Below the pieces are notes generated by a model. That model did no database searches. It saw only the letters and a list, made by a program, of their open reading frames with translations, and had not been told where the DNA came from. Below, in pieces: positions 1 to 34,860 of a DNA stretch of 36,061 nucleotides. Every line of letters starts with the position of its first letter. Positions within the stretch are counted from its first letter, which is position 1. The stretch is from IMG/VR virus record IMGVR_UViG_2778261222_000004, positions 1-36,061 of that record. One strand, given 5' to 3'. Position numbers and translations under genes: made by a program. This stretch comes from a virus (lineage: Duplodnaviria; Heunggongvirae; Uroviricota; Caudoviricetes).

Positions 1-1023
1 TTATGTGGATGAAATGTGGATGCCTCCTTTTAACGGATTAAGTGAAATTGCATCCTGGAGGAAATCAGGAGCGAGGTGCGCATAGGTCATAGTTTGCTGG
101 ATCGTGGCGTGCCCCATAATTCGCTGGAGCGTAAGTATATTTCCTCCATTAATCATAAAGTGAGCAGCAAAGGTATGGCGTAGAACATGTACAGCCTGTC
201 CTTTTGGTAGGTCTGGCTTAACACTGCGAAGCACCTTGCGATATTCCTCATAATTGACGTCAAACAAAAGGCCGGATTTCTTTGTTTTGATCTCACTAAC
301 AACTTCATCAGAGACAGGAATAATTCGAACTTTTCCGTTTTTAGTTTTGTTAAACGTCACGCGATTATTGATGATGTGTTCCGCGCGCAGATTTTTCGCT
401 TCTCCCCATCTCGCCCCAGTACTGAGACAAAGTAGCGTAATCCGCCGGGCATCACCGCTTACTGCATCCAGTAATTTGGCGATTTCTTCCATGGTGAGAT
501 ACGTCATTTCGGGTGATTTTCGTTTCAAAGAGGGGAGGGCGCGGAGCGGATTTTCTCCGTGAAATTCCCCGGCATTTGCCAGGAGTGTAAACATTCCTCC
601 GAGATCCGACTCATCACGCCGAACAGTAGACTCTTTTACTCCCAAGGATAAACGGGAGCTTCGATAAGCGGCCATGAAACGAGCATTAATCTGGCTAACC
701 CTTGGATCATTCATTTCTTTGATGATTTTTTTCAACCTGGTTAGAACGCCGTTAGCATATGGCTTATTGCGTCCACCCAATTCCCACCATAACGGAAGCA
801 GATCTGAGAGATGACGTTGCTCTGTTGGCTTTTCAAGCCATTCCTTATCGTGCATGTGGCTGAGAACATAACGCTCAAAGGCCACTGCATCTGCCTTTTT
901 CTTAAAAATCCGCTGAATCCGACGTCCACTTCGGCCACGCGGTCTAACATCCACTTTATACCGTCCACCATCGAGCGCTTTAATTGCCATTGGCAAGCCC
1001 TCCGGTGAAACGAGGAAAGACAT
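1..1023 (-). CDS. int: tyrosine site-specific recombinase (phage integrase, P2 Int-like)
   Basis: 340-aa ORF with ATG at 1023..1021; C-terminal catalytic region (HVLRHTFAAHFMINGG ... GHATIQQTMTYAHL) typical of tyrosine recombinases; lies immediately downstream of the C-type repressor as in P2; its stop codon is nt 1-3 of the window. Confidence 0.9.
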   Translation of the reverse strand: MSFLVSPEGLPMAIKALDGGRYKVDVRPRGRSGRRIQRIFKKKADAVAFERYVLSHMHDKEWLEKPTEQRHLSDLLPLWWELGGRNKPYANGVLTRLKKIIKEMNDPRVSQINARFMAAYRSSRLSLGVKESTVRRDESDLGGMFTLLANAGEFHGENPLRALPSLKRKSPEMTYLTMEEIAKLLDAVSGDARRITLLCLSTGARWGEAKNLRAEHIINNRVTFNKTKNGKVRIIPVSDEVVSEIKTKKSGLLFDVNYEEYRKVLRSVKPDLPKGQAVHVLRHTFAAHFMINGGNILTLQRIMGHATIQQTMTYAHLAPDFLQDAISLNPLKGGIHISST

Positions 1024-4104: not shown

Positions 4105-4317
4105 ATGAACAAAAAGACCTGGTTTCGCGCATACATGTGGGCGCTGGTATGCGTCCTCGTTTCTCTCATTCTGTATGTGGGGCTACTTCCCAGAATGATT
4201 TCATCAGACAGCTCCTTCCTGGTATTGCTGGGCATTTTTGTCGCCTTGCTGTACCCGGCGGGCGTTGTTCGCTTTTTCAGTAACTACATCAAAGCAATTA
4301 TGGAAACCAAACAATGA
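4105..4317 (+). CDS. small membrane protein (two predicted TM helices)
   Basis: ATG 4105 with GAAGGA about 7 nt upstream; two hydrophobic stretches (WALVCVLVSLILYVGLL and FLVLLGIFVALLYPAGVV); stop overlaps the start of the SPFH gene. Confidence 0.5.
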   Translation: MNKKTWFRAYMWALVCVLVSLILYVGLLPRMISSDSSFLVLLGIFVALLYPAGVVRFFSNYIKAIMETKQ

Positions 4318-5138
4318 AAAAACTATTACCACTCATCCCTCTCCTGATGACCACACTTCTGGTTGGCTGTGACCGCGTGGAGCCGGGCAATGTAGGCATC
4401 AAAGTCAACAAACTGGGCGACGATAAAGGCGTCGGTGAAGTAGTTGGCGTTGGCCGCTACTGGACAGGCTGGAATACAGAGGTTTACATCTTCCCGACTT
4501 TCAAACAAATGAAGACTTACGATGAGCCGTTCAACTTCCAGATGAGTGACGGCACAACCATCGGCTATCACATCGGCGTGGCCTACAAAGTTGATCCATC
4601 CAAAGTTACCACTGTGTTTCAGACCTACCGCAAAGGCGTGGATGACATTACCGACACTGACCTGCGCCAGAAGATCGCCGATGCACTCAACCGACTGGCC
4701 AGCAAAATGACCACCGATAAGTTTATCGACGGTGGCAAGTCTGAACTGCTGGATTCAGCACTTAAAGACATTCAGTCAGAAATGACACCTATCGGCATTC
4801 AGGTCATGAGCCTCTCTTATGTCGGTAAACCGGAATATCCGCCAACCGTTATCGACAGCATTAACGCCAAAGTCACGGCAAACCAGAAAACCCTGCAACG
4901 CGAACAGGAAGTCAAGCAACGCGAAGCAGAAGCCAACATGTTGCGCGCAGAAGCTGCCGGACAGGCTGATGCCATTCGCACAAAAGCCCAGGCTGAAGCC
5001 GACGCCATTCGTTTACGCGGTGAAGCTCTGCGCCAGAATCCCGGCGTTATGGAGCTGGAAGCAATCAACAAATGGAACGGCACGCTGCCGCAATACATGA
5101 CCAGCAACACCGCTGTTCCGTTTGTTCCGGTGAAGTAA
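4314..5138 (+). CDS. SPFH/band-7 (stomatin/flotillin/HflC-like) lipoprotein
   Basis: N-terminal signal peptide with lipobox LLVGC; SPFH-like core; C-terminal Ala/Glu-rich coiled coil (QREAEANMLRAEAAGQADAIRTKAQAEADAIR) and WNGTLP terminal block typical of band-7 proteins. Confidence 0.75.
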   Translation: MKKLLPLIPLLMTTLLVGCDRVEPGNVGIKVNKLGDDKGVGEVVGVGRYWTGWNTEVYIFPTFKQMKTYDEPFNFQMSDGTTIGYHIGVAYKVDPSKVTTVFQTYRKGVDDITDTDLRQKIADALNRLASKMTTDKFIDGGKSELLDSALKDIQSEMTPIGIQVMSLSYVGKPEYPPTVIDSINAKVTANQKTLQREQEVKQREAEANMLRAEAAGQADAIRTKAQAEADAIRLRGEALRQNPGVMELEAINKWNGTLPQYMTSNTAVPFVPVK

Positions 5139-5144
5139 TTAAAC

Positions 5145-5190
5145 CCGGCCAGTGAAAATCGCTGGCCGGAGCAGTATCAGGATTTTTTTT
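5145..5190 (+). terminator. putative intrinsic terminator after the SPFH operon
   Basis: Perfect 8-bp stem CCGGCCAG / CTGGCCGG (5145-5152 / 5162-5169) with a 9-nt loop, followed at a distance by a T8 run (5183-5190). Confidence 0.4.
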
Positions 5191-5370
5191 AGTATGCCGT
5201 TCTCACAAAAAAACCGCTTGCCATGCCGCAATCAGTCAGGTTACATTTCCGCTGCACCTCATAAAACGGGTGCCGGGTTTCGCAGCCTGCTGACAACCAA
5301 AGCGCACAACCGCGCCAGCGGTTTTTTTGTGCGTACTGTATTGCCACGTCTTTTTCGCACACGAATTATG

Positions 5371-5444
5371 GCGGGGCGTACGGGGCCGACTTCGGTCGGG
5401 CCGGGTTCTTTGGTTGCCGGTACTGCGAACCCCGTACGTCTCGC
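5371..5444 (+). other. structured element: 15-bp long-range helix enclosing a UUCG-tetraloop hairpin (candidate ncRNA or RNA regulatory structure)
   Basis: 5371-5385 (GCGGGGCGTACGGGG) pairs with 5430-5444 (CCCCGTACGTCTCGC): 13 Watson-Crick plus 2 G-U pairs; inner hairpin CCGAC-TTCG-GTCGG at 5386-5399; sits in a 370-bp stretch with no convincing ORF. Confidence 0.35.
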
Positions 5445-5507
5445 CACCCACAGTTTCGCAGCTCTGGATGGTGAGTTTTCAAAACTTACAACCAAAGAGG
5501 CCACACC

Positions 5508-5738
5508 ATGGCAAACCGCAAACAGCACCGCGCTATCGCGGAGCGTCGTCACATCCAGACTGAAATCAACCGCAGACTTTCCCGCGCATTCCGCGTCGCT
5601 AAAATCATGCACATCAATATGCTGCATGAGCGTAGCTGCGAACTTTCAAACCTCTACTCATCCGCTGTTTTCAGTTATCTGGCGGATGATCTGCGCGAGC
5701 TTCAGCAGCTCATCCAGCAGCAAAACAAACTCCATTAA
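5508..5738 (+). CDS. hypothetical basic protein
   Basis: 76-aa ORF with RBS AGAGG upstream of ATG 5508; Arg/Lys-rich N-terminus; function unknown. Confidence 0.45.
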   Translation: MANRKQHRAIAERRHIQTEINRRLSRAFRVAKIMHINMLHERSCELSNLYSSAVFSYLADDLRELQQLIQQQNKLH

Positions 5739-5810
5739 TTCCTGTTCCGGGCCTTTCCTGCACCTTGCGGCGGGAGGCCTTCGCACATCTGTAACAAGAG
5801 GATTGCCGCA

Positions 5811-6176
5811 ATGATTCTCGCCAACGACTTTCTTGAATACCTGCTCAACACAGAGCGTGATCTTGCCGCTCGCGTGCGTGATCGTTATGACATGTACCTG
5901 AAATCCCTGCCTGTACCGCAGCTCGCTGACGGAAAGATTGTTATTGATGGTCGCTACATGATTGACAGCCACGAGGGAAATTACAGGCTTTCCCGCATTG
6001 AAGGTGGCACCCCGTCCGTTATTGGCATTTACCAGCGCCCATCCTCTGCAATCGTCGATGTGATTGCCGACAGCATCCGCATCACACATCGCCATGCCGA
6101 CACAGAAGACACCGTGCTGGAAATTCAGCGGCTGGCTACAGTCTGCCGCGACACCCTGAATGGCATGACGAAGTAA
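5811..6176 (+). CDS. hypothetical protein immediately upstream of the replication gene
   Basis: 121-aa ORF with RBS AAGAGGA; same strand and tight spacing with the A-type gene. Confidence 0.5.
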   Translation: MILANDFLEYLLNTERDLAARVRDRYDMYLKSLPVPQLADGKIVIDGRYMIDSHEGNYRLSRIEGGTPSVIGIYQRPSSAIVDVIADSIRITHRHADTEDTVLEIQRLATVCRDTLNGMTK

Positions 6177-6182
6177 ATCACT

Positions 6183-9005
6183 ATGACGGCAGAGTACATC
6201 AGGGACTGGCAACAACCGCGCCACGCAGTGGGGCGTGAAGGAACGGGGATCCCCGCTCCTGAATCCGCGCTTTCCTCCTGGCTGGATGCCTACCGGGTAG
6301 AGAACGAGCGCCGCCAGGAAATGGCTGATGCGGCGTTCTCCGCCACGCCGCTGGGCAACCTGATTAATAAAAGCCTGGACGCACAGGAAAAACAGGACAA
6401 AACCATCACACTGGCAGGAGACGCCAGAAAACAGGCACGCGGCGCAGTGGATGAAGCCATGACCTCGCTGCGCCTGCTGCCGTCCTATCTGCGCGATCCG
6501 CTTATTCGCCACCTCTCCTTCCTGCGCAAAAAACAGGAAGCCGATCGCCGGAAAGGCAAAAAGAGCTGGCAGGCTGAACGCTACGCGCGCGGAACCCTGC
6601 GCAAAATATTCGTACGTCTGGACCGCACCGACAGCCGTTGGCTGACACCGGGTTATCGGTCCCTTGCCGGACGTGAACGCCTGGACGATTTGCTTTACCT
6701 GCCGCAACTCAACAAACACCAGATACAGACGCTGGCCACCATGACGGCGGCGATGTTCAGCAGCACCTTCGAAAAACTCTGCGATGGTTTTGGCGCGACT
6801 GATGGCGAGCTGACCATGGATGTAACGCTGAAGGCGTATCAGATGCTGGCCCGCATGGCGTTACACTTGCACGCCATGCCTCCGCATTATGACGCACTGA
6901 CAACAGACAAAGACCGGAGGAACGAACCGGACACAGAACTGCTGCCGGGCGCAATCCTTCGCCTGACCTGTGCGGAATGGTGGAAACGCAAACTGTGGCT
7001 GTTACGTTGCGAGTGGAGAGAAGAACAACTCCGCGCCGCCTGTCTGGTTTCCAGAAAAACATCGCCCTATCTGAGCCAGGACGCGTTAAGCGAGTTTCGC
7101 GCACAGCGCGAGAAAACACGCGATTTCCTGAAAAGTTTCATGCTGGAAAACGAAGACGGGTTCACGATTGATCTCGAGACAGTGTATTACGCGGGAGTAA
7201 GTAACCCGGTTCACCGTAAGGCAGAAATGATGGCCACCATGAAGGGGCTGGAACTTCTGGCCGAAGCCCGTGGCGACAGAGCGGTGTTTCTGACCATCAC
7301 CTGCCCGTCAAAATACCACGCCACAACAGAGAACGGTCATCCGAATCCCAAATGGAATGGGGCCACCATGCGCGACTCCAGCGATTACCTGGTTAACACG
7401 TTTTTTGCGGCGGTCCGCAAGAAACTGAACCGCGACGGCCTGCGCTGGTATGGTATCCGCACGGTGGAGCCTCACCATGACGGCACCGTGCACTGGCATA
7501 TGATGGTCTTTGCTCATCCGGAAGAAATCGACACCATTGTGTCTCACACCCGCGATATTGCCATTCAGGAAGATCGTCACGAGCTGGGTGATGATATTAC
7601 CCCACGCTTTAAGGCGGAGTACGTCGACGGCTCAAAAGGCACGCCAACCAGCTACATCGCCACCTACATCGGAAAGAACCTGGACAGCCGCGCCGTAGAT
7701 GGCATCGACCCGAAAACGGGCAAGCCACGCGTTGACCACGAAACCGGAAAATCAATGGCCGAGAGCGTGGAACGCGCCATCGGCTGGGCGCGCCTTCACC
7801 GTGTCCGCCAGTTCCAGTTCTTTGGTATCCCCTCCCGTCAGGTGTGGCGTGAACTCCGCCGCCTTGCCAGCCAGATGGCACGCAACCCGGAAGGCCCGCA
7901 ACGGCTGAAGGATGACGCAATGGATGCGGTACTCGCTGCCGCTGATGCCGGATGTTTTGCCACCTACATAGAGAAACAGGGCGGCGTACTTGTTCCACGC
8001 AAAGACTACCTGATTCGCACAGCCTACGACCTCGCAGATGAGCTGAACGATTACGGCGAACAGAGCGTACAGATTTACGGGATCTGGTCACCACTCATCG
8101 GGGAATCCTCCCGTGTGTGCACGCATCCGGATAACTGGATGCTGGTAAGACGTAAACCGGAAGCGGAAGACAGCACCCGCGAAAATGGTTTTGACCTTCA
8201 GGGCGGCCCTGCCGCCCCTTGGACTCGTGGCAATAACTGTCCCCGTGTACAGGAAACAGGCAACAACGGGACAGAACAGCCGGAAGAACGGCCAGCACCG
8301 TGGCCGCAGATTCCTGACGGCGTTGAAGTGAATGAATGGATGCGCTCACTGAAACGGCACGAACGCCGGGCGCTGATGCGTTCGCTTCGTGACAAACAGG
8401 CAAAAAACAGCAGTGATGAAATGCAAAGCTGGACACAGAGCCGCAAACAGCAGCGGCCTTTGCCTGATAACCACGAATTACTCGCTAAAGAATGGCGGGA
8501 GTCTGCTGAATCTCTCGGCCTGCATATTGGTGAACAGCAGATGCAGCACCTGTTACGGGGCGGCAGTCTGTACGTTGACGGCAGCATCATTGCACCGCAG
8601 GGATTTGAAATTGTACGCAAACCGGATACCCGCCCGGACAGCCGAATCACGCAGCTCTGGCAGCGCCTGAGCCGTAATCACGGCGTAAGCAGCACGGAGA
8701 TCCGCCATAACCCGGCCGCCAGCTATCTGGAACAGCTGGGGGCATCAGACCCCGAAGCCGCCGCACGTCTGGCATCCACACTTCAGCAGGACCAGAACAC
8801 CATGAAAACCCCCGTTACCGTGCTTTCTGACATGCTGCGCGCCATCCGCGACGCAGAGCATGCACAGAGAATCAGTGAAACCACTGAACGCGCCCGCCGC
8901 AAAGCAGACCTGCTGCGGGGTGGCCTGACAAGTGGAAACAAAAAACAGACAGAAACGGGATTCACAAATCCCGTAAATGAGCAAAAAACGCGCCGCGATA
9001 TATGA
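6183..9005 (+). CDS. rolling-circle replication initiator endonuclease (P2 A / phiX174 gpA family, HUH superfamily)
   Basis: 940-aa ORF; HUH-type motif HWHMMVF and paired catalytic tyrosines YIATYIGK; position after the early operon as in P2; long hydrophilic C-terminal extension. Confidence 0.9.
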   Translation: MTAEYIRDWQQPRHAVGREGTGIPAPESALSSWLDAYRVENERRQEMADAAFSATPLGNLINKSLDAQEKQDKTITLAGDARKQARGAVDEAMTSLRLLPSYLRDPLIRHLSFLRKKQEADRRKGKKSWQAERYARGTLRKIFVRLDRTDSRWLTPGYRSLAGRERLDDLLYLPQLNKHQIQTLATMTAAMFSSTFEKLCDGFGATDGELTMDVTLKAYQMLARMALHLHAMPPHYDALTTDKDRRNEPDTELLPGAILRLTCAEWWKRKLWLLRCEWREEQLRAACLVSRKTSPYLSQDALSEFRAQREKTRDFLKSFMLENEDGFTIDLETVYYAGVSNPVHRKAEMMATMKGLELLAEARGDRAVFLTITCPSKYHATTENGHPNPKWNGATMRDSSDYLVNTFFAAVRKKLNRDGLRWYGIRTVEPHHDGTVHWHMMVFAHPEEIDTIVSHTRDIAIQEDRHELGDDITPRFKAEYVDGSKGTPTSYIATYIGKNLDSRAVDGIDPKTGKPRVDHETGKSMAESVERAIGWARLHRVRQFQFFGIPSRQVWRELRRLASQMARNPEGPQRLKDDAMDAVLAAADAGCFATYIEKQGGVLVPRKDYLIRTAYDLADELNDYGEQSVQIYGIWSPLIGESSRVCTHPDNWMLVRRKPEAEDSTRENGFDLQGGPAAPWTRGNNCPRVQETGNNGTEQPEERPAPWPQIPDGVEVNEWMRSLKRHERRALMRSLRDKQAKNSSDEMQSWTQSRKQQRPLPDNHELLAKEWRESAESLGLHIGEQQMQHLLRGGSLYVDGSIIAPQGFEIVRKPDTRPDSRITQLWQRLSRNHGVSSTEIRHNPAASYLEQLGASDPEAAARLASTLQQDQNTMKTPVTVLSDMLRAIRDAEHAQRISETTERARRKADLLRGGLTSGNKKQTETGFTNPVNEQKTRRDI
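8953..8977. repeat. 25-bp palindromic element, copy 1 (AAACGGGATTCACAAATCCCGTAAA)
   Basis: Inverted repeat ACGGGATT / AATCCCGT inside the last codons of the A-type ORF; matches copy 2 at 23 of 25 positions. Confidence 0.6.
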
Positions 9006-9025
9006 AGCGCGCATAAAACAGGCAA

Positions 9026-9050
9026 AAACGGGATTTAAAAATCCCGTAAA
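9026..9050. repeat. 25-bp palindromic element, copy 2 (AAACGGGATTTAAAAATCCCGTAAA)
   Basis: Perfect 9-bp inverted repeat ACGGGATTT / AAATCCCGT with 2-bp spacer, 73 bp downstream of copy 1 and about 30 bp upstream of parM. Confidence 0.6.
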
Positions 9051-9081
9051 CGATTAATTAATCAACATAAGGAAAAGCGAC

Positions 9082-10041
9082 ATGAAAATTTGTATCGACG
9101 ACGGCTCCACCAACATCAAGCTGGCATGGACTGAGAACGGCGAACGCCGCAACGCCATCAGCCCGAACAGCTTCAAGTCGGAATGGTCTGCGCCGTTCGG
9201 TGGCACGCAGCCCGCGAACTACATGCTTGATGGTGTGCGCTATGGTTTTGATCCGGTCAGCGATCGCTTTGTCCAGACGACCGACACGCAATACCAGTAC
9301 AGCGATGTGAATGTCATTGCCATTCATCACGCGCTGGTCAAATCAGGCATCACGCCACAGGAGGTGGATGTGGTTGTCACCCTGCCACTGAGCGAGTATT
9401 TCGACACAAACGCACAGCCGGACATGGCCAACATCAACCGCAAAAAAGCGAACGTTATGCGCCCGGTGGAGTACCAGAACGGCGAAGCATTCACTATCCG
9501 TAACGTGCGGGTTATGCCTGAATCCATTCCGGCTGGCTTTAAAGCACTGGCCGACATGAGTCCGTTTGAATCCCTGCTGATTGTGGATTTGGGCGGAACC
9601 ACGCTGGATGTGGCAAAGGTTCAGGGGCAGCTGGCAGGTATCAGCCAGGTGTTTTGCGATCCACACGTAGGCGTTTCTCTGATGGCCGATGCCGTGCTGT
9701 CGGTGATGGCCACCAACGGTATGCGCACCAGTCACCACATCGCCAATACCATTATCGAACATCGCCACGATGAAGCCTGGCTGCGCCAGCACATCCACAA
9801 TGACGCGCATTACGCCAGCCTGATGGCAGTTATTCGTGAAAAGGAAGAAACACTGAAACAACGCGTGATCCGCGCGCTGGCGGGTTTTTCGGGTTACGGG
9901 CGGGTGATGGTTGTAGGTGGAGGAGCGGAGATTGTGGCACCCGCTATCTGCGAAGCCTGCGGAGTTAATGCGACTTTCATCGCGGACGGGGTGCCACAGT
10001 TTGCTCTGGTTAATGGGCTGTACGCAATGGACCAGGAGTAA
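9082..10041 (+). CDS. parM: actin-like plasmid segregation ATPase ParM (StbA family)
   Basis: 319 aa; N-terminal phosphate-1 block ICIDDGSTNIKLAW, DVNVIAIHHAL, VMPESIPAG, LLIVDLGGTTLD and MVVGGGAE blocks align by eye along the whole length with plasmid R1 ParM. Confidence 0.9.
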   Translation: MKICIDDGSTNIKLAWTENGERRNAISPNSFKSEWSAPFGGTQPANYMLDGVRYGFDPVSDRFVQTTDTQYQYSDVNVIAIHHALVKSGITPQEVDVVVTLPLSEYFDTNAQPDMANINRKKANVMRPVEYQNGEAFTIRNVRVMPESIPAGFKALADMSPFESLLIVDLGGTTLDVAKVQGQLAGISQVFCDPHVGVSLMADAVLSVMATNGMRTSHHIANTIIEHRHDEAWLRQHIHNDAHYASLMAVIREKEETLKQRVIRALAGFSGYGRVMVVGGGAEIVAPAICEACGVNATFIADGVPQFALVNGLYAMDQE

Positions 10042-10045
10042 ATCA

Positions 10046-10360
10046 ATGACGACACCAACCAGACGGATAAGTTTCTATCTGAAGCCCACCGTCGTCAAGA
10101 GCGAACGGGAGGCGTGCAGTTACCTCGACAGCCTGCCAGCCTCCGAACGCAGCCGCGCACAACGCGCGGCTTTTCTGGCCGGACTGGCTCTTATAAAACG
10201 CACCCCCGCGTTGGCGTATTCGCTGGCAGAATGGTCAGAAGACGAAATACGGATGCCACCGCTACCAGTACAGCCTGAAAAACCGGCGCAACCAGCAGCA
10301 GACAGCGCCCCCCATATGCAGCAGGTGAAAAAGAATATTCAGGCGTTTTTCCCGAAGTGA
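10046..10360 (+). CDS. parR: ParR-like centromere-binding adaptor (ribbon-helix-helix)
   Basis: ATG 10046 with AGGAG about 7 nt upstream, 4 nt after the parM stop; N-terminal block ISFYLKPTVVKSEREACSYLDSLPASERSRAQRAAFLAGLAL resembles R1 ParR; the ORF-track start 9917 lies inside parM and is rejected. Confidence 0.7.
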   Translation: MTTPTRRISFYLKPTVVKSEREACSYLDSLPASERSRAQRAAFLAGLALIKRTPALAYSLAEWSEDEIRMPPLPVQPEKPAQPAADSAPHMQQVKKNIQAFFPK

Positions 10361-10374: not shown

Positions 10375-10662
10375 ATGTCCACCATTACCAAAGAATGGTT
10401 ACAACGTAAAATCACAGAGTTTAAATCGTGGCGCGAAGACATCCCGTTCGGTCTTGATGAAGACGATCACAATATGTTAACCGCACTGGAAATCGCACTT
10501 GCATCACTGGAAGCAGAGCCAGTGGCATGGATACACGCAAATAATCCTATTGGAATACCGGCGATAACAAGAAGTAAAGATGTTGCAGACAGCTGGCGCT
10601 CTAAGGGATGGAATGTATTGCCTCTTTATTCACTGACCCGCTCCATCAATTTATGCCATTAA
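10375..10662 (+). CDS. hypothetical protein (cargo gene)
   Basis: 95 aa from ATG 10375 with AGGAG 5 nt upstream; lower GC than the flanking core genes by eye; no recognisable motif. Confidence 0.45.
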   Translation: MSTITKEWLQRKITEFKSWREDIPFGLDEDDHNMLTALEIALASLEAEPVAWIHANNPIGIPAITRSKDVADSWRSKGWNVLPLYSLTRSINLCH

Positions 10663-10673
10663 TGGAAGTAATC

Positions 10674-11033
10674 ATGATGAAAGATAATTCCGGAAGCCAG
10701 CGTGCATCAGTTGCAGTTATGGTGATGATTAAATTTGTGAAACAGTACACCGGAAAGCCAATCTCGCTCCGGCAATTAAGCAAAGAAACCGTTTCACTGT
10801 CATATCTGGAGCAAATATTCAGATATTTACGGGAAAGTAGCCTGGTAAAAGCCACACGCGGCCCGGGTGGTGGATATATCCCAACAAAAGAAAATTACAG
10901 TGTTGGTGATATTGTCCGGGCAATGAAATGTTCCGGATTATATACACAGCACGTTATTCTGGCTGCACTGGATAATATTTCTTTAACCAGCCTGCAGGAA
11001 GACACAAATTATCAGTTGTCTGCCATTGAATAA
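10674..11033 (+). CDS. Rrf2/IscR-family-like winged-helix regulator (short form)
   Basis: Signature blocks ISLRQLSKETVSLSYLEQIF and RGPGGGY typical of Rrf2-family regulators; ATG 10674 preceded by GGAAG; the ORF-track start 10608 overlaps the upstream gene. Confidence 0.6.
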   Translation: MMKDNSGSQRASVAVMVMIKFVKQYTGKPISLRQLSKETVSLSYLEQIFRYLRESSLVKATRGPGGGYIPTKENYSVGDIVRAMKCSGLYTQHVILAALDNISLTSLQEDTNYQLSAIE

Positions 11034-11038
11034 GAAAA

Positions 11039-11079
11039 CCCGGAACGGGTGCGCAAATTCTTTGTGCGCCCGTTCCGGG
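11039..11079. terminator. bidirectional GC-rich hairpin terminator between convergent genes
   Basis: Inverted repeat CCGGAACGGGTGCGCA / TGCGCCCGTTCCGG with AAATTCTTT loop, between the Rrf2-like gene (plus) and the ogr-like gene (minus). Confidence 0.6.
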
Positions 11080-11101
11080 TTGGACAAGCGAAGCGCGTCA
11101 G

Positions 11102-11359: not shown

Positions 11360-11424
11360 TTTCCACCTCCCGGAACAGCGTTTTACTGCCACCGATTTTA
11401 CCCGCTCTTTCCCCATACCGCACA

Positions 11425-14239: not shown

Positions 14240-14469
14240 AAAATACCTGTGATATTTGTTTTAACCAGTTTTCATCTTTTCCCGGTTCGTTCCGTAACGT
14301 TCCGTAATATCCCATTATTTGCTGCAGGCATTTTTTTAACGATTATCTGTTTTCGATATTTTTCGGATATATGCACATATCCGAAAGTACCGGAAATTAA
14401 TCAGATGACGACATTTTTATTTCTCCGTTAAATAACGCCAGTTTAATTTTTATCAGCGGATTAATTCAG
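14240..14469. promoter_or_regulatory. divergent late promoter region (terminase operon leftward, capsid operon rightward)
   Basis: 230-bp AT-rich spacer between divergent late operons; contains tandem 10-bp repeat CGTTCCGTAA x2 (14288-14307) and palindrome TTCGGATAT-N6-ATATCCGAA (14362-14385). Confidence 0.5.
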
Positions 14470-15366
14470 ATGACGAAGCAGAAAACAGACTGGGTTGTGG
14501 TTGCCACATCAGGCCCCACCATCGACGGTCGGGAAATTGATCCGAAGTGGCTGACAGATGCCGCCGAGGTTTACAACCCGGACGAGCGAGCCGCCATGCT
14601 CTGGCCATATCACGCCGATTCCGGATGGCGTGCCTTCACCAATAACTACGGCCTTGTTGATGCCCTGAAAGTCGAAAAATTTGGTGACAAGGTGCAGCTT
14701 AAAGCACGCCTGATCCCAAATCGCTTCCTGATTGAAGCCAATAAGGCCGGGCAGAAGCTTTTTACCTCCATTGAGGTGCGGGAAAACTATCTGGGCACGG
14801 GCAAATTCTTTGTGTCAGGTATCGCCGTGACGGATACCCCGGCCAGCGTTAACACCACACGCCTGCAGTTTTCCATGGGGGAAACCATCCATATGGGCAA
14901 CGCAGAGGCGCTGAATTTTACGCTGCAGTCTGATGATGAGCTGGCCAAGCGCAACTTCTTCTCCCGCTTCTTCTCATCTGACAACCACCAACAGGGAATC
15001 TACCAAGCCATGAACGAAGAACAGTTCAGCCAGTTAATGGGCGCTATTAATAAAACCAGCGAACGCCTGGACAAGCTGGAAGAAAACGTCGCGCAGTTCA
15101 GCGCGAAGGATGCCCCGAAAGATACTGGTGATAACAAGCCGGAAGGCAGCACCGGCGATCAGGGGCAGAACAACGCAGAACAGAACAACAAGGACGACAA
15201 AACCTTCACGCTGACCACTGAGCAGGGGGAAAAGCTGTTCTCCACGGTGAACGCCATCGCGGAGAAAGTCACCAGTATGGAAACCGCATTTGCTGAACTC
15301 AGCAAGGATGCCACGAAGCTGCCGGGTAACAATCCGGCCGGTGGCGAAACTTTTAACCTGGTGTAA
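14470..15366 (+). CDS. capsid scaffolding protein (P2 gpO-like)
   Basis: 298 aa, first gene of the rightward head operon; acidic, low-complexity C-terminal half typical of scaffolds. Confidence 0.85.
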   Translation: MTKQKTDWVVVATSGPTIDGREIDPKWLTDAAEVYNPDERAAMLWPYHADSGWRAFTNNYGLVDALKVEKFGDKVQLKARLIPNRFLIEANKAGQKLFTSIEVRENYLGTGKFFVSGIAVTDTPASVNTTRLQFSMGETIHMGNAEALNFTLQSDDELAKRNFFSRFFSSDNHQQGIYQAMNEEQFSQLMGAINKTSERLDKLEENVAQFSAKDAPKDTGDNKPEGSTGDQGQNNAEQNNKDDKTFTLTTEQGEKLFSTVNAIAEKVTSMETAFAELSKDATKLPGNNPAGGETFNLV

Positions 15367-15380
15367 CCGGAGAGAACACA

Positions 15381-16394
15381 ATGAACATGACACCAGAAGC
15401 ACAAAAGCTGGTTAATCAGTACATCAGCGAACTGCAAAAAACATTCAGTGACTGCGGAAAATCAAGCGATCGTTTCTTTTCGCTGACCGAGCCACGCAGT
15501 ATTGCTCTGCGTAAAGCCCTGCTGGAAAGCACGGAATTTCTGAGTTTCACCACCTGCATGGACGTTCCGCACCCGCAGGGGCAGGTCGTCACAGTGGGAG
15601 AATCCACGCTGCGCACCGGTCGCGTGAAAAGCGGTCGTTTCGCTAAAGGTTCGGGCATCAAAGGCAACGAATTTAAACTCGTTGAAACTGATTCCTGCTG
15701 CGTGATCACCTGGGAACAACTCGCCATCTGGGCGAATGCCGGCAGCCCGCAGGAATTTTTCAACCTGATGAACTCCGCCGCCGTCACCAACTTTGCGCTG
15801 GACATGCTGCGCATTGGCTTTAACGGCAAAGAGGCTGCTGAAAACTCTGACCCGGAAAGTCACCCGAACGGCGAAGACGTCAACATCGGCTGGCATGAAA
15901 TCGCCAAAAAGTGGGGAGAACAGCCCGGCAATACCTCCCGTATTCTGACGGACGCCGTTACCCTGGGCGAAGGCGGTGATTATGTCGGCCTTGATGCCAT
16001 GGCCTCAGACCTGATCCGCACTTATATCCCGGCGCAATATCACAACGATCCTCGCCTTACTGTGCTGGTTGGCGCAGACCTTGTGGCTGCTGAAGAACTA
16101 CGCCTCTACAACAAAGAGGACAAGCCCACCGAAAAAGTGGCCGCACAGTTGCTGACGAAGAACATCGCAGGCCGCAAGGCCATCATTCCGCCGTTTATGC
16201 CGGGTAAGCGTATGGTGGTGACCATGCTGCCAAACCTGCAGATCCTGACGCTGAAGGGTTCCCGCCGTCGTAAAGCGGAAGATGTGGGCGATCGCAAACA
16301 GTTCGAAAACTCATACTGGCGTTACGAGGGGTACGCCCTGGGCGATCCGGATTTATATGCTGCCGTGGATGAGTCTGCGGTCACCATCGCCTGA
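15381..16394 (+). CDS. major capsid protein (P2 gpN-like)
   Basis: 337 aa; block GEGGDYVGLDAM ... NDPRLTVLVGADL resembles the P2 gpN family. Confidence 0.9.
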   Translation: MNMTPEAQKLVNQYISELQKTFSDCGKSSDRFFSLTEPRSIALRKALLESTEFLSFTTCMDVPHPQGQVVTVGESTLRTGRVKSGRFAKGSGIKGNEFKLVETDSCCVITWEQLAIWANAGSPQEFFNLMNSAAVTNFALDMLRIGFNGKEAAENSDPESHPNGEDVNIGWHEIAKKWGEQPGNTSRILTDAVTLGEGGDYVGLDAMASDLIRTYIPAQYHNDPRLTVLVGADLVAAEELRLYNKEDKPTEKVAAQLLTKNIAGRKAIIPPFMPGKRMVVTMLPNLQILTLKGSRRRKAEDVGDRKQFENSYWRYEGYALGDPDLYAAVDESAVTIA

Positions 16395-16411
16395 TAAACG
16401 GAGCGCACGGT

Positions 16412-17122
16412 ATGCCAACGCCAATGCAGCGACAACGTGCCCGACAGATGGATGAGCGCCGTGCGGCGCTCATGACCACAACGGACGGACGCGCCATCAG
16501 CACAGAGAGTCAGCACATTAAGCTGCTGGCACTGGATAACGATGTCAGACAACTGCACAACATGGAGCTGCTGTCTGACAAGCTGGAATTCAAACGGAAC
16601 ACGCTGCTGCCCCGCTGGCTGCCACACGCACAGGCTTATCTGGAGGGGGAACGCGTCTATCAGAATCCCATTCTGGTGTACTGCATCATCTGGCTGTTCG
16701 ATACCGGGCAGTTTGAGATGGCGCTGCGGTGGGCTGACATTGCCATTGAGCAGGGACAAAAGACGCCGGAGAACTTCAAAAGCGAGCTGCCAACGTTTGT
16801 GGCCCATTTCATTCTTGAATGGGCAGAAACCGAAGCTGAACGTGGGAACAGTATCGCGCCATATTTTCAGCAGGTGTTTGAAAAAATCCGTGACAAATGG
16901 CGCGTGAATGAACGCCTTGCTGCCAGCTACTGGCGCTTTGCAGGCGTCCTGCTGCTGCGCGGCGATGACGGTAAACCGCTGGCCAGTGCAATTAACGATC
17001 CGGAGAGACTGCAACAGGCCGACCAGTGTCTGGAACGGGCTGCCTGGCTGCATCCAAAAATTCAGGTGAAAACCCTGCGCCAGCGCATTGCCGCAAGACT
17101 GCGCGCGTTGCAGGGCACGTAA
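16412..17122 (+). CDS. terminase small/endonuclease subunit (P2 gpM-like)
   Basis: 236 aa, position after the capsid gene as in P2. Confidence 0.7.
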   Translation: MPTPMQRQRARQMDERRAALMTTTDGRAISTESQHIKLLALDNDVRQLHNMELLSDKLEFKRNTLLPRWLPHAQAYLEGERVYQNPILVYCIIWLFDTGQFEMALRWADIAIEQGQKTPENFKSELPTFVAHFILEWAETEAERGNSIAPYFQQVFEKIRDKWRVNERLAASYWRFAGVLLLRGDDGKPLASAINDPERLQQADQCLERAAWLHPKIQVKTLRQRIAARLRALQGT

Positions 17123-17220
17123 ACGACTCCCAACAACCGGGCGGGCGCGGTGGAGGTGTGCCGGCAAAAGCCATCAGCACACTGCGGAAACCGGTCAGCC
17201 CGCCTTTCCCCGGAGTGAGC

Positions 17221-17715
17221 ATGTTTGACGGGAAAAGCATTCACTATCAGCAGGCCATTATTCAGAACGATGGATTCTGGCCGGATATTGATGCCGGCGA
17301 TTTTGAAAAGAGCCGCAGCATCCCCGCCGTCACGTCACACGAAACGGTGCTGACGGCACTGCTTTGCGCGGTAACAGAGATTAACACTGAACTGGCTGCA
17401 CGCCGTGAATACTGGCAGGAACAGGGCCACATCCGGGCCGCCGATATTCCGGGTTACACCGTGTTGCAACCAGAGCCGCGCAATACGGATGCACAACCTG
17501 AACGGATGCAGAACCACATTACAGCACTGTACACCAAGGCTGTGTATGCCCGCGCAAAGGCCGATCTTTTGCCGGAATCTGCCAGCGTGGGGCGACGCGA
17601 GGCGCAGCCCTCATCAGAAGCCAGCGAGAGCCGCCGGACGTTGCTGGCTGAAGCGGCCATGGCGGTGCGGGCGCTGCTGGGCCGACCGCGTGCATCCATC
17701 GCGCTGATTGATTAA
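17221..17715 (+). CDS. head completion/stabilisation protein (P2 gpL-like)
   Basis: ATG 17221 preceded by GGAG; position after gpM; the ORF-track start 17026 is an unlikely upstream extension. Confidence 0.65.
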   Translation: MFDGKSIHYQQAIIQNDGFWPDIDAGDFEKSRSIPAVTSHETVLTALLCAVTEINTELAARREYWQEQGHIRAADIPGYTVLQPEPRNTDAQPERMQNHITALYTKAVYARAKADLLPESASVGRREAQPSSEASESRRTLLAEAAMAVRALLGRPRASIALID

Positions 17716-17724
17716 GGAAATGGT

Positions 17725-18198
17725 ATGACGCAACTCGCCAGCCTGACGGCATTCATTGAAAACAATCTGCCGGCACGCGCACGCATTCCGTTCACCAGTG
17801 ACATGGACGACATCACGCTCGTTCCGTTTACGAAGTCGCTGGGGCACGGGCAGTTATGTACGCAGGTCCGAAAATATACGGCTTTTCTGCGATGGGACGC
17901 ATGGCCCTATCGTCAGCTCAATCCGGATTTGGTGTTTTCTCTGGTTGAAGCCTGGCTGGCAGACAACGGCGGCGACCTGCGCCAGCGCCTGGCACCGGAT
18001 GCGCCAGCCGTTGACGTCGAAGTGGATGATGAAAATGAAGTGGCATGGCTGGAAATCAGTCTGCCGCTGGTTGATCCCATCACCCTGGTTGAGGACGAAA
18101 ACGGCCCCATCCCCAGAGGCGGGAAACGTTACCAGCTGGAAAAGCCTGAAATCTGGGTGGCTCAGGCGCATCAGCTTCACTGTCAGGTGATGCCATGA
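17725..18198 (+). CDS. putative tail completion / head-tail joining protein (gpR-like)
   Basis: 157 aa, position and size only; stop overlaps the next start. Confidence 0.4.
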   Translation: MTQLASLTAFIENNLPARARIPFTSDMDDITLVPFTKSLGHGQLCTQVRKYTAFLRWDAWPYRQLNPDLVFSLVEAWLADNGGDLRQRLAPDAPAVDVEVDDENEVAWLEISLPLVDPITLVEDENGPIPRGGKRYQLEKPEIWVAQAHQLHCQVMP

Positions 18199-18908
18199 CG
18201 CGCCCAGTGATTAACGAGTCACAACTCCGGCAGGTTCGTCGCGCCATCAGAGAGGCAGAACTTCCGCCTGCAAAGGCCAGAAAGCTGCTGGTTCGCATTG
18301 CGAAATACGGCCTGATACCGGCTGCACGACGCAATGTGAAAGCACAGCGAACACCGGAGGGGGCAGCCTGGGCACCACGAAAAAGACCGGATAAAGCCAG
18401 CGGCAGGTATAAAAACAAAATGCTGCTGGGACTGCCGAAACTGCTGGCCATCAGGGTTGACGGCAGCGGGAAAAGTGTCCGCCTTTTCTTCAAAAAAGGG
18501 GCTTACAACACCGGCTCTCATGGTGGGGCGGTCGCGTGGGTGCAACAGCACGGCGCAACCATCAAAGGCCGCGCCACAAAGCGCCGGGACAGCGAAGCCA
18601 TGCGCACCCGTCCCGCCACACGACGGCAGGCAGAACGCCTTCTTTCTCTGGGCTTTCGCGCCCCCGTCGGCGCAGTCAGCAAAAAGACCGGGCGCAGGGG
18701 GCGCAGAAAACCTTCCCTGAAATGGATTATGGAAAACATGAGTATGGCGCAGGCCGGACTGGTGATCAGCATTCTGAAAGGCGAGCAGAAAAAACGTGTA
18801 TGGGAAATCAAAATCCCCTCCCGCGCATTTCTGGGAGCCAGCGATGCTGAATTTGCCCGCATTCTGGAAGCGCAGCTGCGCAGCCTGCATTACGGCGGCA
18901 CGAGATAA
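18195..18908 (+). CDS. putative virion morphogenesis / tail completion protein (gpS-like)
   Basis: 237 aa basic protein, translationally coupled to the upstream gene; assignment by position. Confidence 0.4.
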   Translation: MTRPVINESQLRQVRRAIREAELPPAKARKLLVRIAKYGLIPAARRNVKAQRTPEGAAWAPRKRPDKASGRYKNKMLLGLPKLLAIRVDGSGKSVRLFFKKGAYNTGSHGGAVAWVQQHGATIKGRATKRRDSEAMRTRPATRRQAERLLSLGFRAPVGAVSKKTGRRGRRKPSLKWIMENMSMAQAGLVISILKGEQKKRVWEIKIPSRAFLGASDAEFARILEAQLRSLHYGGTR

Positions 18909-18928
18909 CAAAAATCAGGAGACAAACC

Positions 18929-20077: not shown

Positions 20078-20529
20078 CGACCCGCATTAACGGCATGGCG
20101 TTTGACACTTTTATCGGTGGAACGGATATCCATGTGAAAAGCATCTCACTGGACATCAGCGATGAAAGCGCCGTTGCCAAAACCCGTGGCATCCCTGACG
20201 GCAAACTGCGCGGCCCTGTCAGTGCCGAAGGTGAAATCGAAATGAGTACCCGCAGCTTTAACCAGCTCGGGGAAGTGGCTGCTCAGGCGGGATCGTGGCG
20301 TGACCTGCCGCCAATGGATTTTGTGTTTTACGCCAACACGGGAACCGAAGAAATCCGCGTTGAAGCCTTCGGTTGTGAGCTGATGCTTTCCGGCCTGTTA
20401 AGCATTGACACCGAGAGCGCAGATCTGACCACGCACAAAATCAAGTACGTGGTGGCAAGCCCTGACTTTGTGCGTATCAACGGCGTGCCCGTTCTCTCAG
20501 AGAACGACGTGCGCGGACTGATGGGGTGA
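20074..20529 (+). CDS. putative tail tube-like protein
   Basis: 151 aa, start overlaps the sheath-like stop; size and position consistent with a tube protein. Confidence 0.45.
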   Translation: MTTRINGMAFDTFIGGTDIHVKSISLDISDESAVAKTRGIPDGKLRGPVSAEGEIEMSTRSFNQLGEVAAQAGSWRDLPPMDFVFYANTGTEEIRVEAFGCELMLSGLLSIDTESADLTTHKIKYVVASPDFVRINGVPVLSENDVRGLMG

Positions 20530-20532
20530 ACC

Positions 20533-20829: not shown

Positions 20830-20834
20830 CAGCA

Positions 20835-20936: not shown

Positions 20937-20938
20937 AA

Positions 20939-21280: not shown

Positions 21281-21287
21281 TTTTACG

Positions 21288-21317
21288 CTTAATAAGCCTT
21301 CCTGCAGGCTTATTAAG
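21288..21317 (+). terminator. perfect 12-bp hairpin after the endolysin (terminator or operator)
   Basis: CTTAATAAGCCT - TCCTGC - AGGCTTATTAAG; followed by a pyrimidine-rich stretch and a TTGACT hexamer ahead of the tail-chaperone gene. Confidence 0.4.
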
Positions 21318-34719: not shown

Positions 34720-34860
34720 ATGTCGCAAAAATCGCTTATAGCCATCACGTTCTGCGTGACGGCAATCCTCATCATCTGGATGCTGCACGGTTCGCTGTGC
34801 GAGATACGGATGAGCTTCTGGGGAGCGGAGTTTGCGGCGTTCTTACAGTGTAAGCAGTAA
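34720..34860 (+). CDS. hok: Hok/Gef-family type I toxin (small membrane peptide)
   Basis: 46-aa ORF not in the ORF track; RBS AAGGAG 8 nt upstream; N-terminal TM helix (LIAITFCVTAILIIWML) followed by the Hok signature SLCEIR and a periplasmic tail containing ...EFAAF...C. Confidence 0.65.
   Translation: MSQKSLIAITFCVTAILIIWMLHGSLCEIRMSFWGAEFAAFLQCKQ

What the first reader, a model, noticed from the sequence alone, without database searches (positions are those of the whole stretch)
9082..10360. R1-type parM/parR partition cassette inside a P2-like phage: candidate phage-plasmid
A full-length ParM actin-like ATPase and a ParR-like adaptor sit between the replication gene A and the packaging genes. 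In P2 this A-to-Q interval is the tin/old accessory locus. Together with the Hok-family toxin at 34720-34860 the element carries both classical plasmid R1 stability modules (active segregation and post-segregational killing) while keeping a P2-type integrase, repressor and cox. That combination suggests the element can be maintained as an episome, or switches between integrated and plasmid states. I do not recall P2-like phages being among the well-known phage-plasmid groups, but the lifestyle cannot be decided from this window.
Basis: partly seen in the sequence, partly recalled or inferred. Interest (0 to 1): 0.8.

Follow-up and report, generated by a model that had tools for sequence, protein, structure and literature searches.

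The report
ParM/ParR segregation cassette in integrated prophage
An intact plasmid-type DNA-segregation gene pair (ParM/ParR) sits in a P2-like E. coli prophage; it is a conserved, already annotated core feature of the common P88-like phages, which are almost always found integrated in the chromosome rather than as plasmids.

Summary
Window 9082-10041 encodes a full-length ParM (Pfam E 1e-82 and 1e-67; 47% identical to R1 ParM; ATPase motifs intact). Window 10046-10360 encodes a ParR/StbB adaptor (PF10784, E 9e-24).

The phage-plasmid interpretation is only partly supported.
- An identical prophage lies between pheL and raiA in an E. coli chromosome, flanked by a 20-bp att repeat.
- The cassette occurs in 1303 of 5426 complete E. 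coli genomes: 1441 copies on chromosomes and 2 on plasmids.
- No genome shows a joined attP.

The cassette is not decaying cargo.
- parM dN/dS is 0.01-0.14.
- About 97% of genomes with the P88-type gene A also carry it.
- ParM relatives at 54-63% identity in Plesiomonas, Hafnia, Serratia and Enterobacter sit in the same A-parM-parR-cargo-portal arrangement.
- True plasmid ParMs are all below 60% identical.

I found a candidate centromere. It consists of two CGGGA-N8-TCCCG boxes 73 bp apart, just upstream of parM, and it is conserved across three genera.

Most likely the module segregates the phage's transient circular DNA after infection or excision. This resembles srpMRC of SXT/R391 ICEs and AlpAC of prophage CGP3.

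P88's partition genes and the "episomal and integrative states" idea were already published (Pfeifer 2021). The finding is real and functionally untested, but not new.

The parts
9082..10041 (+). parM: actin-like segregation ATPase, 319 aa
   Evidence: Pfam StbA_N and ParM C-terminal domain. R1 ParM structures, E 4e-92, full length. 46.8% identity to R1 ParM with nucleotide-binding motifs conserved. dN/dS 0.01-0.14 against 8 relatives.
10046..10360 (+). parR: ribbon-helix-helix centromere-binding adaptor, 104 aa. It has an N-terminal strand RRISFYLKP, a variable linker and a C-terminal tail KKNIQAFFPK.
   Evidence: PF10784, E 9e-24. pB171 StbB 2jd3. PHROG 2515. N-terminal strand and C-terminal tail are conserved while the linker is hypervariable. 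The tail motif is shared with plasmid ParRs.
8955..8974 (.). Box 1 of the candidate centromere/operator: palindrome ACGGGATT-CACA-AATCCCGT, inside the last codons of gene A
   Evidence: 4 strand-matches against 0.06 expected. Conserved in 9 relatives. The same motif at the same spacing occurs in the Plesiomonas and Hafnia phages.
9028..9047 (.). Box 2 of the candidate centromere/operator: palindrome ACGGGATT-TAAA-AATCCCGT, 73 bp after box 1 and ending 35 nt before the parM ATG
   Evidence: The arms are invariant in 8 of 9 relatives, while the central 4 nt vary.
8939..9053 (.). Candidate parC region: two copies of a 42-nt direct repeat (8939-8980 and 9012-9053, 86% identical), each holding one box
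   Evidence: the repeat finder family D1.
6183..9005 (+). Gene A, the P2-type rolling-circle replication initiator (940 aa). It lies directly upstream and is probably co-transcribed with parMR.
   Evidence: Phage_GPA, E 4.5e-131. No sigma-70-like promoter and no plus-strand terminator in the 76-nt gap.
10375..11033 (+). Variable cargo after parR: a hypothetical protein (10375-10662) and an Rrf2-family regulator (10674-11033). Not part of the par module.
   Evidence: Pfam Rrf2, E 4e-13. Annotation. This stretch differs in every relative examined and is shared by only 37 E. coli genomes.
34720..34860 (+). Hok/Gef-family toxin gene (46 aa), distant from the par locus and near the attR end
   Evidence: PF01848, 30.9 bits against a cutoff of 22. 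PGAP annotation. No Sok RNA at the Rfam gathering score.
1..990 (-). Tyrosine integrase at the attL end of the prophage
   Evidence: Int_N and Phage_integrase. attL core lies 113 nt left of window position 1 in the identical chromosome.

Best explanation
This is a functional type II (ParMRC-like) DNA-segregation module that belongs to the core genome of a P2-like phage lineage. It acts on the phage's extrachromosomal circular DNA, not on a long-term plasmid prophage. The proposed steps are as follows. parM and parR are transcribed with the early/replication operon, immediately after gene A (inferred). ParR dimers bind the two CGGGA-N8-TCCCG boxes, which lie 73 bp apart (about seven helical turns) just upstream of parM (inferred from conservation). 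The conserved C-terminal tail of ParR captures the ends of ParM-ATP filaments, as in R1. The filaments push sister circles made by A-dependent rolling-circle replication into opposite cell halves. The benefit would be that, in the interval after infection or excision and before integration or lysis, a dividing cell does not lose the element and replicating templates are spread through the cell. The Hok toxin may add post-segregational killing. What is shown: gene identity, intact motifs, purifying selection, conserved synteny across five genera, conserved boxes, and the integrated state of the prophage. What is inferred: box binding, co-transcription, timing and the fitness effect.
For: Identity and intactness of ParM and ParR. 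Strong purifying selection on parM: dN/dS 0.01-0.14 with dS up to 0.21 over 36 pairs; 94-96% DNA identity but 98-99% protein identity among phage isolates. Core status: P88-type gene A at >=80% coverage in 1321 genomes and parMR in 1279. Old association with the phage: ParMs at 54-63% identity in Plesiomonas, Hafnia, Serratia and Enterobacter all lie in A-parM-parR-cargo-portal-terminase synteny. All true plasmid ParMs in PLSDB are <60% identical, and a rough NJ tree groups the phage copies together. Two-box motif at 72-73 bp spacing, 53-60 nt before the ATG, in E. coli, Plesiomonas and Hafnia, together with a conserved ParR N-terminal strand TRR[IV]SFYL. ParR C-terminal motif shared with plasmid ParRs. 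No promoter-like or plus-strand terminator-like site between A and parM. Integrated state. Experimental precedents for integrative elements using actin-type partition on their transient circles: srpMRC plus a TA system plus relaxase-driven rolling-circle replication in ICE R391 (PMC4489591), and AlpAC of prophage CGP3 (PMC4446434).
Against: No experiment exists for this cassette in any P88-like phage. Two boxes are far fewer than the ten iterons of R1 parC (recalled from memory). Plasmid parM loci carry about 300 bp of AT-rich upstream DNA, against 76 nt here, so a working centromere is unproven. The palindromes also score as minus-strand terminator-like hairpins. The Serratia and Enterobacter relatives have a different upstream repeat layout. 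Co-transcription rests on a simple consensus scan. A segregation machine gives no obvious advantage once a cell is committed to lysis, and P2 and 186 manage without one. The phage-specific clade is not statistically tested: the Serratia and Enterobacter ParMs are about as close to R1 as to this one.
Confidence: 0.5

Rival explanations
1. Lytic-cycle organiser, as the primary role rather than inheritance. As with AlpC/AlpA of Corynebacterium prophage CGP3, ParM filaments tethered by ParR position or disperse replicating phage circles so that replication and packaging are efficient. (From memory, P2 packages monomeric circles.) This overlaps mechanistically with the best explanation and differs only in the selected benefit.
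For: The cassette sits directly after replication gene A and near the packaging genes, with no promoter of its own detected. This synteny with A is conserved in five genera. AlpAC is an early-induced operon, its adaptor binds upstream of its own operon, and both proteins are needed for efficient viral DNA replication (PMC4446434).
Against: AlpC is only a distant actin-like relative, whereas this ParM is a close relative of bona fide plasmid partition ParMs at 47-52% identity. No data exist on replication or burst defects.
Confidence: 0.25
2. Facultative phage-plasmid, which is the first reader's reading and the suggestion of Pfeifer 2021. The phage can persist as a stably inherited episome, for example in hosts lacking attB, using A for replication, ParMRC for partition and Hok for post-segregational killing. 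It would switch between integrated and plasmid lysogeny.
For: Complete par module plus a Hok toxin. One closed 34.5-kb circular record (NZ_CP148288.1) is a whole P88-like phage with int, parMR and hok. P88 is listed among putative phage-plasmids with this suggestion (PMC7969092). The P2-like KS14 is a proven plasmid prophage (PMC3091744). Phage-plasmid D6 uses a StbA/ParM-type system at 47.5% identity.
Against: 1441 of 1443 copies in 5426 complete E. coli genomes are chromosomal. No genome of 5426 has a contiguous attP junction for two att types. The other 'plasmid' hits are records of 227 kb to 1.4 Mb or an unplaced linear IS-ridden contig. Up to three copies with near-identical ParM and boxes coexist in one genome, which would be expected to cause incompatibility if they were episomal. 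KS14 has RepB plus ParA and no integrase, unlike this element. I found no plasmid-type copy-controlled replicon next to the cassette. The single circular record may be excised phage DNA from spontaneous induction.
Confidence: 0.13
3. The cassette serves the lysogen or competes with other elements. In this view, ParR or ParM expressed from the prophage interferes with the partition of incoming related phages or plasmids (incompatibility or exclusion). Alternatively, it is inert hitch-hiking cargo in the accessory slot that holds tin/old in P2.
For: It occupies the region next to a hypervariable cargo slot. ParR shows at least three divergent allelic types while ParM stays 98-99% identical, a pattern that could reflect conflict.
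Against: The box motif is absent from the plasmid and D6 par loci examined. Box sequence does not co-vary with ParR allele type. There are no PADLOC defence hits. Near-universal presence in the lineage, fixed synteny across genera and dN/dS of about 0.07 argue against inert cargo.
Confidence: 0.07

Closest known systems
parMR of Escherichia phage P88 and other Xuanwuvirus/P88-like Peduoviridae (phiSM, P884B11, 520873, 569R5)
   Same: Same genes at the same position after gene A. ParM is 98-99% identical and the upstream boxes are conserved. They are already annotated as ParM/partition protein and listed as a putative phage-plasmid feature.
   Different: This copy carries a different ParR allele from P88 itself. 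Its cargo after parR (Rrf2 regulator) is different. Its head-tail module has almost no nucleotide match in 50,697 phage records.
ParMRC of plasmid R1 (type II partition) and par1/StbAB of pB171
   Same: Actin-fold ATPase with all nucleotide-binding motifs. RHH adaptor of the Plasmid_stab_B family with a C-terminal ParM-binding-type tail. parM-parR gene order with the cis site upstream.
   Different: Only 47% identical to R1 ParM. The candidate centromere is two 20-bp palindromes 73 bp apart in a 76-nt gap that overlaps the end of gene A, rather than a long iteron array. The carrier is an integrative phage.
srpMRC of SXT/R391 integrative and conjugative elements
   Same: A type II partition locus on an element that normally lives integrated. 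It stabilises the transient excised circle, together with a TA system and rolling-circle replication by an element-encoded nickase (relaxase TraI at oriT) (PMC4489591). This element likewise combines int, rolling-circle initiator A, Hok and ParMR.
   Different: srpMR are described there as only distantly related to R1 ParMR, and the element is conjugative rather than a phage. The function here is untested.
AlpC/AlpA of Corynebacterium glutamicum prophage CGP3
   Same: An integrated prophage encodes an actin-like filament former and a co-transcribed adaptor that binds upstream of the operon. The operon is induced early and needed for efficient viral DNA replication (PMC4446434).
   Different: The host is Gram-positive, the actin-like protein is a distant relative, and the adaptor is unrelated. 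Here the proteins are close relatives of plasmid ParM and ParR.
Phage-plasmids with partition systems: D6 (P1-like, StbA type) and Burkholderia KS14 (P2-like, ParA type)
   Same: D6 carries a ParM/StbA plus StbB pair at 47.5% identity. KS14 shows that a P2-like virion module can go with plasmid lysogeny.
   Different: Both are maintained as plasmids. KS14 has RepB and ParA and lacks an integrase. This element has an integrase and att sites and is found integrated.

Membership tests
Type II (ParMRC) partition system | ParM: actin-fold ATPase with phosphate-1, phosphate-2 and adenosine motifs and a catalytic Glu | tested here: met
   Full-length Pfam and PDB matches. DDGSTN, PESIPAG, DLGGTTLD and GGGAE sit at the same positions as in R1 ParM.
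Type II (ParMRC) partition system | ParR: small RHH DNA-binding adaptor encoded directly downstream of parM, with a C-terminal ParM-binding tail | tested here: met
   PF10784, E 9e-24. pB171 ParR, E 0.009. 4-nt gap after parM. Tail motif [KR]xN[IA]xx[LF]FP is shared with plasmid ParRs. Sequence-level evidence only.
Type II (ParMRC) partition system | parC: cis-acting centromere of repeated ParR sites upstream of parM, overlapping the promoter | tested here: inconclusive
   Two conserved 20-bp palindromes 73 bp apart. There is no iteron array, no clear promoter, and binding has not been tested.
Type II (ParMRC) partition system | Stabilises an otherwise unstable replicon | not testable with these tools
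   Needs a plasmid-loss assay.
Phage-plasmid (plasmid prophage) | Complete phage morphogenesis, packaging and lysis genes | tested here: met
   Portal, terminase, scaffold, P2-family capsid, sheath, tape measure, baseplate, fibres, holin and endolysin. Some pseudogenes are present.
Phage-plasmid (plasmid prophage) | Partition system | tested here: met
   parMR.
Phage-plasmid (plasmid prophage) | Lysogens carry the element extrachromosomally | tested here: not met
   An identical copy is integrated between pheL and raiA with att repeats. 1441 of 1443 copies are chromosomal. No genome of 5426 has a joined attP. There is one circular 34.5-kb record in PLSDB.
Phage-plasmid (plasmid prophage) | Plasmid-type replication initiator with copy control | tested here: inconclusive
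   Only the P2-type rolling-circle initiator A was identified, and I did not scan every ORF of the window. Pfeifer 2021 counted 'plasmid-like replication genes' in P88.
P88-like / Xuanwuvirus (Peduoviridae) | Nucleotide-level relatedness across the genome to P88 | tested here: inconclusive
   The early/replication/par arm is 94-97% identical. The 20-kb late region has no close match in the phage collection.

The most novel reading that the evidence does not exclude
P88-like phages use ParMRC as a genuine phage cytoskeleton or segregation device. It would give them a second, conditionally stable episomal state (for example when attB is absent or occupied), or it would be required for efficient replication of their monomeric circles. 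Because the cassette is in about a quarter of E. coli genomes and P88 and phiSM are inducible and plaque-forming, this would provide a tractable Gram-negative model for actin-driven phage DNA movement and for elements that sit between prophage and plasmid.
Probability: 0.15. Interest if true: 0.6.

Novelty: already known. Interest (0 to 1): 0.3.

Why it matters
A plasmid segregation machine under strong purifying selection sits in an integrative prophage carried by about 24% of complete E. coli genomes, including the O157:H7, O104:H4, O26 and E2348/69 genomes listed among the hits. Nobody has tested what it does. If it stabilises the transient circular form, it extends to phages the ICE finding that 'integrated' elements have a plasmid-like phase with active partition. 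It would also affect how prophage and phage-plasmid classifiers treat partition genes. As a sequence observation, however, it is ordinary: RefSeq annotates it as ParM, PHROGs has families for both proteins, and the dual-state hypothesis for P88 is in print.

Tried and rejected
- Literature searches for ParM in P2-like prophages mostly returned word-start noise such as Parma and parmentieri. The P88 and phiSM papers do not analyse the par genes; phiSM's is merely listed as a 'fitness' factor.
- The GTDB species scan with ParM peptides gave only three near-identical loci: E. albertii, Salmonella and a probable contaminant labelled Vagococcus.
- I looked for an R1-like iteron array with Tandem Repeats Finder and repeat searches and found none.
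- The promoter scan found no sigma-70 site between A and parM. By eye, TTTAAA-17 nt-ATTAAT overlaps box 2 but matches only 8 of 12 positions.
- The box motif ACGGGAT is absent from IncF and IncI plasmid and D6 par loci.
- PADLOC gave no defence hits for ParM, ParR or the neighbouring cargo.
- Rfam found no Sok RNA next to hok.
- The Shigella 26.7-kb 'plasmid' hit is a linear, IS1-disrupted unplaced contig and is not evidence of an episome.
- NZ_CP148288.1 is not in the complete-genome collection, so I could not check whether its host chromosome also carries the phage.
- From memory, CP-933T is the O157 copy of this phage. I did not verify this, and the two omics papers that mention it gave no parM-specific data.
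- Phage 503458 was excluded from the dN/dS analysis because its record is full of frameshifts.
Full report
**1. What is there**

Window 9082-10041 (+) is a 319-aa ORF. It matches both halves of the ParM fold essentially end to end: StbA_N (E 1.8e-82) and the ParM C-terminal domain (E 1.6e-67). It aligns over its full length with the solved R1 ParM structures (1mwk, E 3.8e-92). Global identity to R1 ParM is 46.8%. The nucleotide-binding and catalytic motifs DDGSTN, PESIPAG, DLGGTTLD and GGGAE sit at the same positions.

Four nucleotides after its stop, 10046-10360 (+) encodes a 104-aa protein. It matches Pfam Plasmid_stab_B (E 9.2e-24), the pB171 ParR/StbB structure 2jd3 (E 0.009) and PHROG 2515 'partition protein' over its whole length.

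- Gene A at 6183-9005 (Phage_GPA, E 4.5e-131).
- An ogr-type zinc finger, portal and terminase on the minus strand from about 11100.
- Integrase, HTH repressor and a Cox-like protein at the left end, and a Hok/Gef-family ORF at 34720-34860.

**2. Where the window comes from**

The par region is 100% identical to the chromosome of E. coli FHI_NMBU_10. There the element runs from the integrase stop (window position 1) to the stop of a DNA methyltransferase (window position 36061). It is inserted between pheL/pheA and raiA. A 20-bp direct repeat, ACAAAAAACGCGCCCGAAGG, lies 113 nt to the left and about 100 nt to the right of the window ends, and serves as attL/attR. This is a cleanly integrated prophage.

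**3. How common it is, and in what state**

The parMR stretch is present in 1303 of 5426 complete E. coli genomes: 1443 copies, of which 1441 are on chromosomes and 2 on plasmids, with up to three copies per genome. The P88-type gene A is present at >=80% coverage in 1321 genomes and parMR in 1279. The cassette therefore behaves as a core gene pair of the lineage.

I built the circular attP junction for this prophage and for a second att type. Neither is contiguous in any of the 5426 genomes; the two halves always map apart.

In PLSDB, seven of 72,556 records match. Five are records of 227 kb to 1.4 Mb, and one is a linear IS1-ridden unplaced contig. Only one, NZ_CP148288.1, is a closed 34.5-kb circle that is a whole P88-like phage with int, parMR and hok. 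It may be an episome or simply excised phage DNA.

Sequenced phage relatives are P88, P884B11, 520873, phiSM of Citrobacter rodentium, and others. P88 and phiSM were obtained by induction or spontaneous release from chromosomal prophages (PMC5285337, PMC6456863).

**4. Is the cassette alive?**

Yes, by three lines of evidence.

- Purifying selection. Phage isolates are 94-96% identical in DNA but 98-99% identical in ParM protein. Nei-Gojobori dN/dS over 36 pairs is 0.01-0.14, with dS up to 0.21.
- Not a recent capture from a plasmid. Among at least 5000 plasmid ParM matches, every true plasmid copy is below 60% identity. The only matches at >=95% are P88-like prophage copies.
- Conserved synteny in the next-closest ParMs. 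In a 5.8-billion-protein collection these are at 63% (Plesiomonas), 62% (Hafnia), 58% (Serratia) and 54% (Enterobacter). Every one lies in the same arrangement: gene A, parM, parR, a variable cargo slot, then portal and terminase, with ogr before the portal in Plesiomonas and Hafnia.

ParMs at about 50% identity in Dickeya and Mangrovibacter chromosomes lie instead in an ICE and in an integrated plasmid. A rough neighbour-joining tree groups the five phage copies apart from the R1, IncF, IncI, ICE and D6 copies. It has no support values, and the Serratia and Enterobacter copies are about as close to R1 as to this one.

**5. A candidate centromere**

R1-type systems need a cis site upstream of parM. 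Here the A-parM gap is only 76 nt, and there is no iteron array.

There is, however, a 42-nt direct repeat in two copies (8939-8980 and 9012-9053). Each copy holds a 20-bp palindrome: ACGGGATT-CACA-AATCCCGT at 8955-8974, inside the last codons of gene A, and ACGGGATT-TAAA-AATCCCGT at 9028-9047. These palindromes are the only such matches in the window, against 0.06 expected. The boxes are 73 bp apart, about seven helical turns, and the second ends 35 nt before the ATG.

In nine relatives the arms are nearly invariant while the central four bases vary. The same CGGGA-N10-CCC[GA] motif recurs twice at 72-73 bp spacing, 53-60 nt before the parM start, in the Plesiomonas phage; the Hafnia phage has two degenerate copies (TGGGATT…CCCA, CGGGTT…CCCA) at the same spacing. 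Their ParMs are only about 62% identical to this one. Their ParRs keep the same N-terminal strand, TRR[IV]SFYL, which is the DNA-reading strand expected of a ribbon-helix-helix protein.

The Serratia and Enterobacter phages have NRKISFYL and a different inverted-repeat layout that still contains GGGAAC.

The ParR linker is hypervariable, with at least three allelic types in E. coli. The C-terminal tail, NI[QR]xx[LF]FP, is conserved and resembles the tails of plasmid ParRs such as RNNIKNLFP. This fits the known ParR design of an N-terminal DNA-binding domain, a flexible linker and a C-terminal ParM-binding peptide.

Binding of ParR to the boxes is an inference. The palindromes also score as minus-strand terminator-like hairpins.

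**6. Regulation**

The consensus scan finds no sigma-70-like promoter and no plus-strand terminator between A and parM. By eye, TTTAAA-17 nt-ATTAAT overlaps box 2 but matches only 8 of 12 positions (sequence).

The simplest reading is read-through from the early operon that ends in gene A. On that reading, ParMR would be made when the phage DNA is extrachromosomal and replicating, and would be silent in the repressed lysogen. This is inferred, not shown.

**7. What it most likely does**

The element is integrative, yet it keeps a working-looking plasmid partition machine beside its rolling-circle initiator. Two experimentally studied systems show why that can make sense.

- In SXT/R391 ICEs, the transient excised circle is kept from being lost by rolling-circle replication from oriT, a TA system and srpMRC, a type II partition locus (PMC4489591).
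- In Corynebacterium prophage CGP3, the actin-like AlpC and its adaptor AlpA are early-induced. AlpA binds upstream of its own operon, and both proteins are needed for efficient viral DNA replication (PMC4446434).

This phage has the same parts list as R391: integrase, rolling-circle initiator A, Hok toxin and ParMR.

I therefore favour ParMRC acting on the transient circular phase, after infection and before integration or after excision. It would push sister circles apart so that dividing cells do not lose the element (confidence about 0.5). An AlpAC-like role in lytic replication is the main variant (0.25). Stable plasmid lysogeny is a minority possibility (0.13). Interference with other elements, or inert cargo, is unlikely (0.07).

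**8. Comparison with what is known, and novelty**

RefSeq already annotates these genes as 'plasmid segregation protein ParM' and 'plasmid partitioning/stability family protein' in more than a thousand genomes. PHROGs has families for both proteins.

Pfeifer et al. 2021 placed P88 in their phage-plasmid catalogue. [quoted passage not shown] P2-like phages are also not foreign to plasmid lysogeny: Burkholderia KS14 is maintained as a plasmid, though with RepB and ParA and without an integrase (PMC3091744). Phage-plasmid D6 carries a StbA-type pair at 47.5% identity.

- The census showing that the integrated state is overwhelming.
- The purifying selection on parM.
- The conserved synteny across five genera.
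- The two-box candidate centromere.

**9. Verdict**

This is a real, intact and probably functional ParMR(C) module. It is a known feature of a very common prophage family. The phage-plasmid label is not supported as the normal lifestyle, and a transient-episome function is the best current model. Interest is modest: about 0.3 as a finding, rising to about 0.6 if a genuine episomal or cytoskeletal role were demonstrated.

Noticed in passing
window 14300-34000: The 20-kb head-tail region has almost no nucleotide match in 50,697 phage records; only tail-fibre segments match. PHROGs and PGAP nevertheless show a P2-family capsid, a contractile sheath (DUF2586, phrog_907), tape measure and baseplate J. 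The prophage is a mosaic of a P88-like early arm and an unsampled late module.
   Followed up: partly
window 5254-5451: Rfam finds isrK (5254-5328, 65.9 bits) and a C4 antisense RNA (5364-5451, 87.1 bits) in tandem. They overlap a truncated 'ash family' pseudogene (5194-5457), just after the SPFH-domain gene (4314-5138). This looks like a P1/P7-type antisense immunity element in the early region.
   Followed up: no
window 10046-10360 and loci L004-L010, L002: ParR exists in at least three divergent allelic types among E. coli relatives while the adjacent ParM stays 98-99% identical. The nucleotide matches of most relatives end inside parR (about 10198-10243). Box sequences do not track the ParR type.
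   Followed up: partly
window 10375-11033: The cargo slot after parR holds a small hypothetical protein and an Rrf2-family regulator found in only 37 of 5426 E. coli genomes. Relatives carry other cargo here, including HicAB, a KAP NTPase and membrane proteins. It is equivalent in position to the tin/old slot of P2.
   Followed up: partly
window 11037-11081 and about 11399-11417: A 21-bp perfect-stem hairpin lies between the Rrf2 gene and ogr and is probably a bidirectional terminator. The reverse complement of 11399-11417 reads GCGGTATGGGGAAAGAGCG, which resembles the P2 cos sequence as I remember it. That would place cos between ogr and the portal gene, about 1 kb from the par locus.
   Followed up: no
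window about 28359-30870 (L001 39330-40841 plus following): PGAP marks a truncated second tail-fibre gene and an internal fragment of a shikimate transporter gene as pseudogenes inside the prophage. Three large hypothetical ORFs follow (31117-33891) with no Pfam or PADLOC hit. This may indicate decay or a novel cargo island.
   Followed up: no
window 34720-34860: The Hok-family ORF is short (46 aa), and no Sok RNA reaches the Rfam gathering score nearby. A Hok gene is also present in the circular relative L002, there next to an ogr gene. Whether it acts in post-segregational killing or in phage exclusion is open.
   Followed up: partly
L021 (Dickeya chromosome) 5001-6373; L022 (Mangrovibacter chromosome): ParM/ParR pairs about 50% identical to this one also sit in a chromosomal ICE (next to TraG/TraU and an integrase) and in an integrated Rep3 plasmid. 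ParMR on integrated elements is therefore not confined to phages.
   Followed up: no
L005 (contig labelled Vagococcus sp. WN89Y): A 97%-identical P88-like parM locus sits on a 226-kb contig assigned to a Gram-positive genus. This is most likely contamination or mislabelling of the assembly.
   Followed up: no
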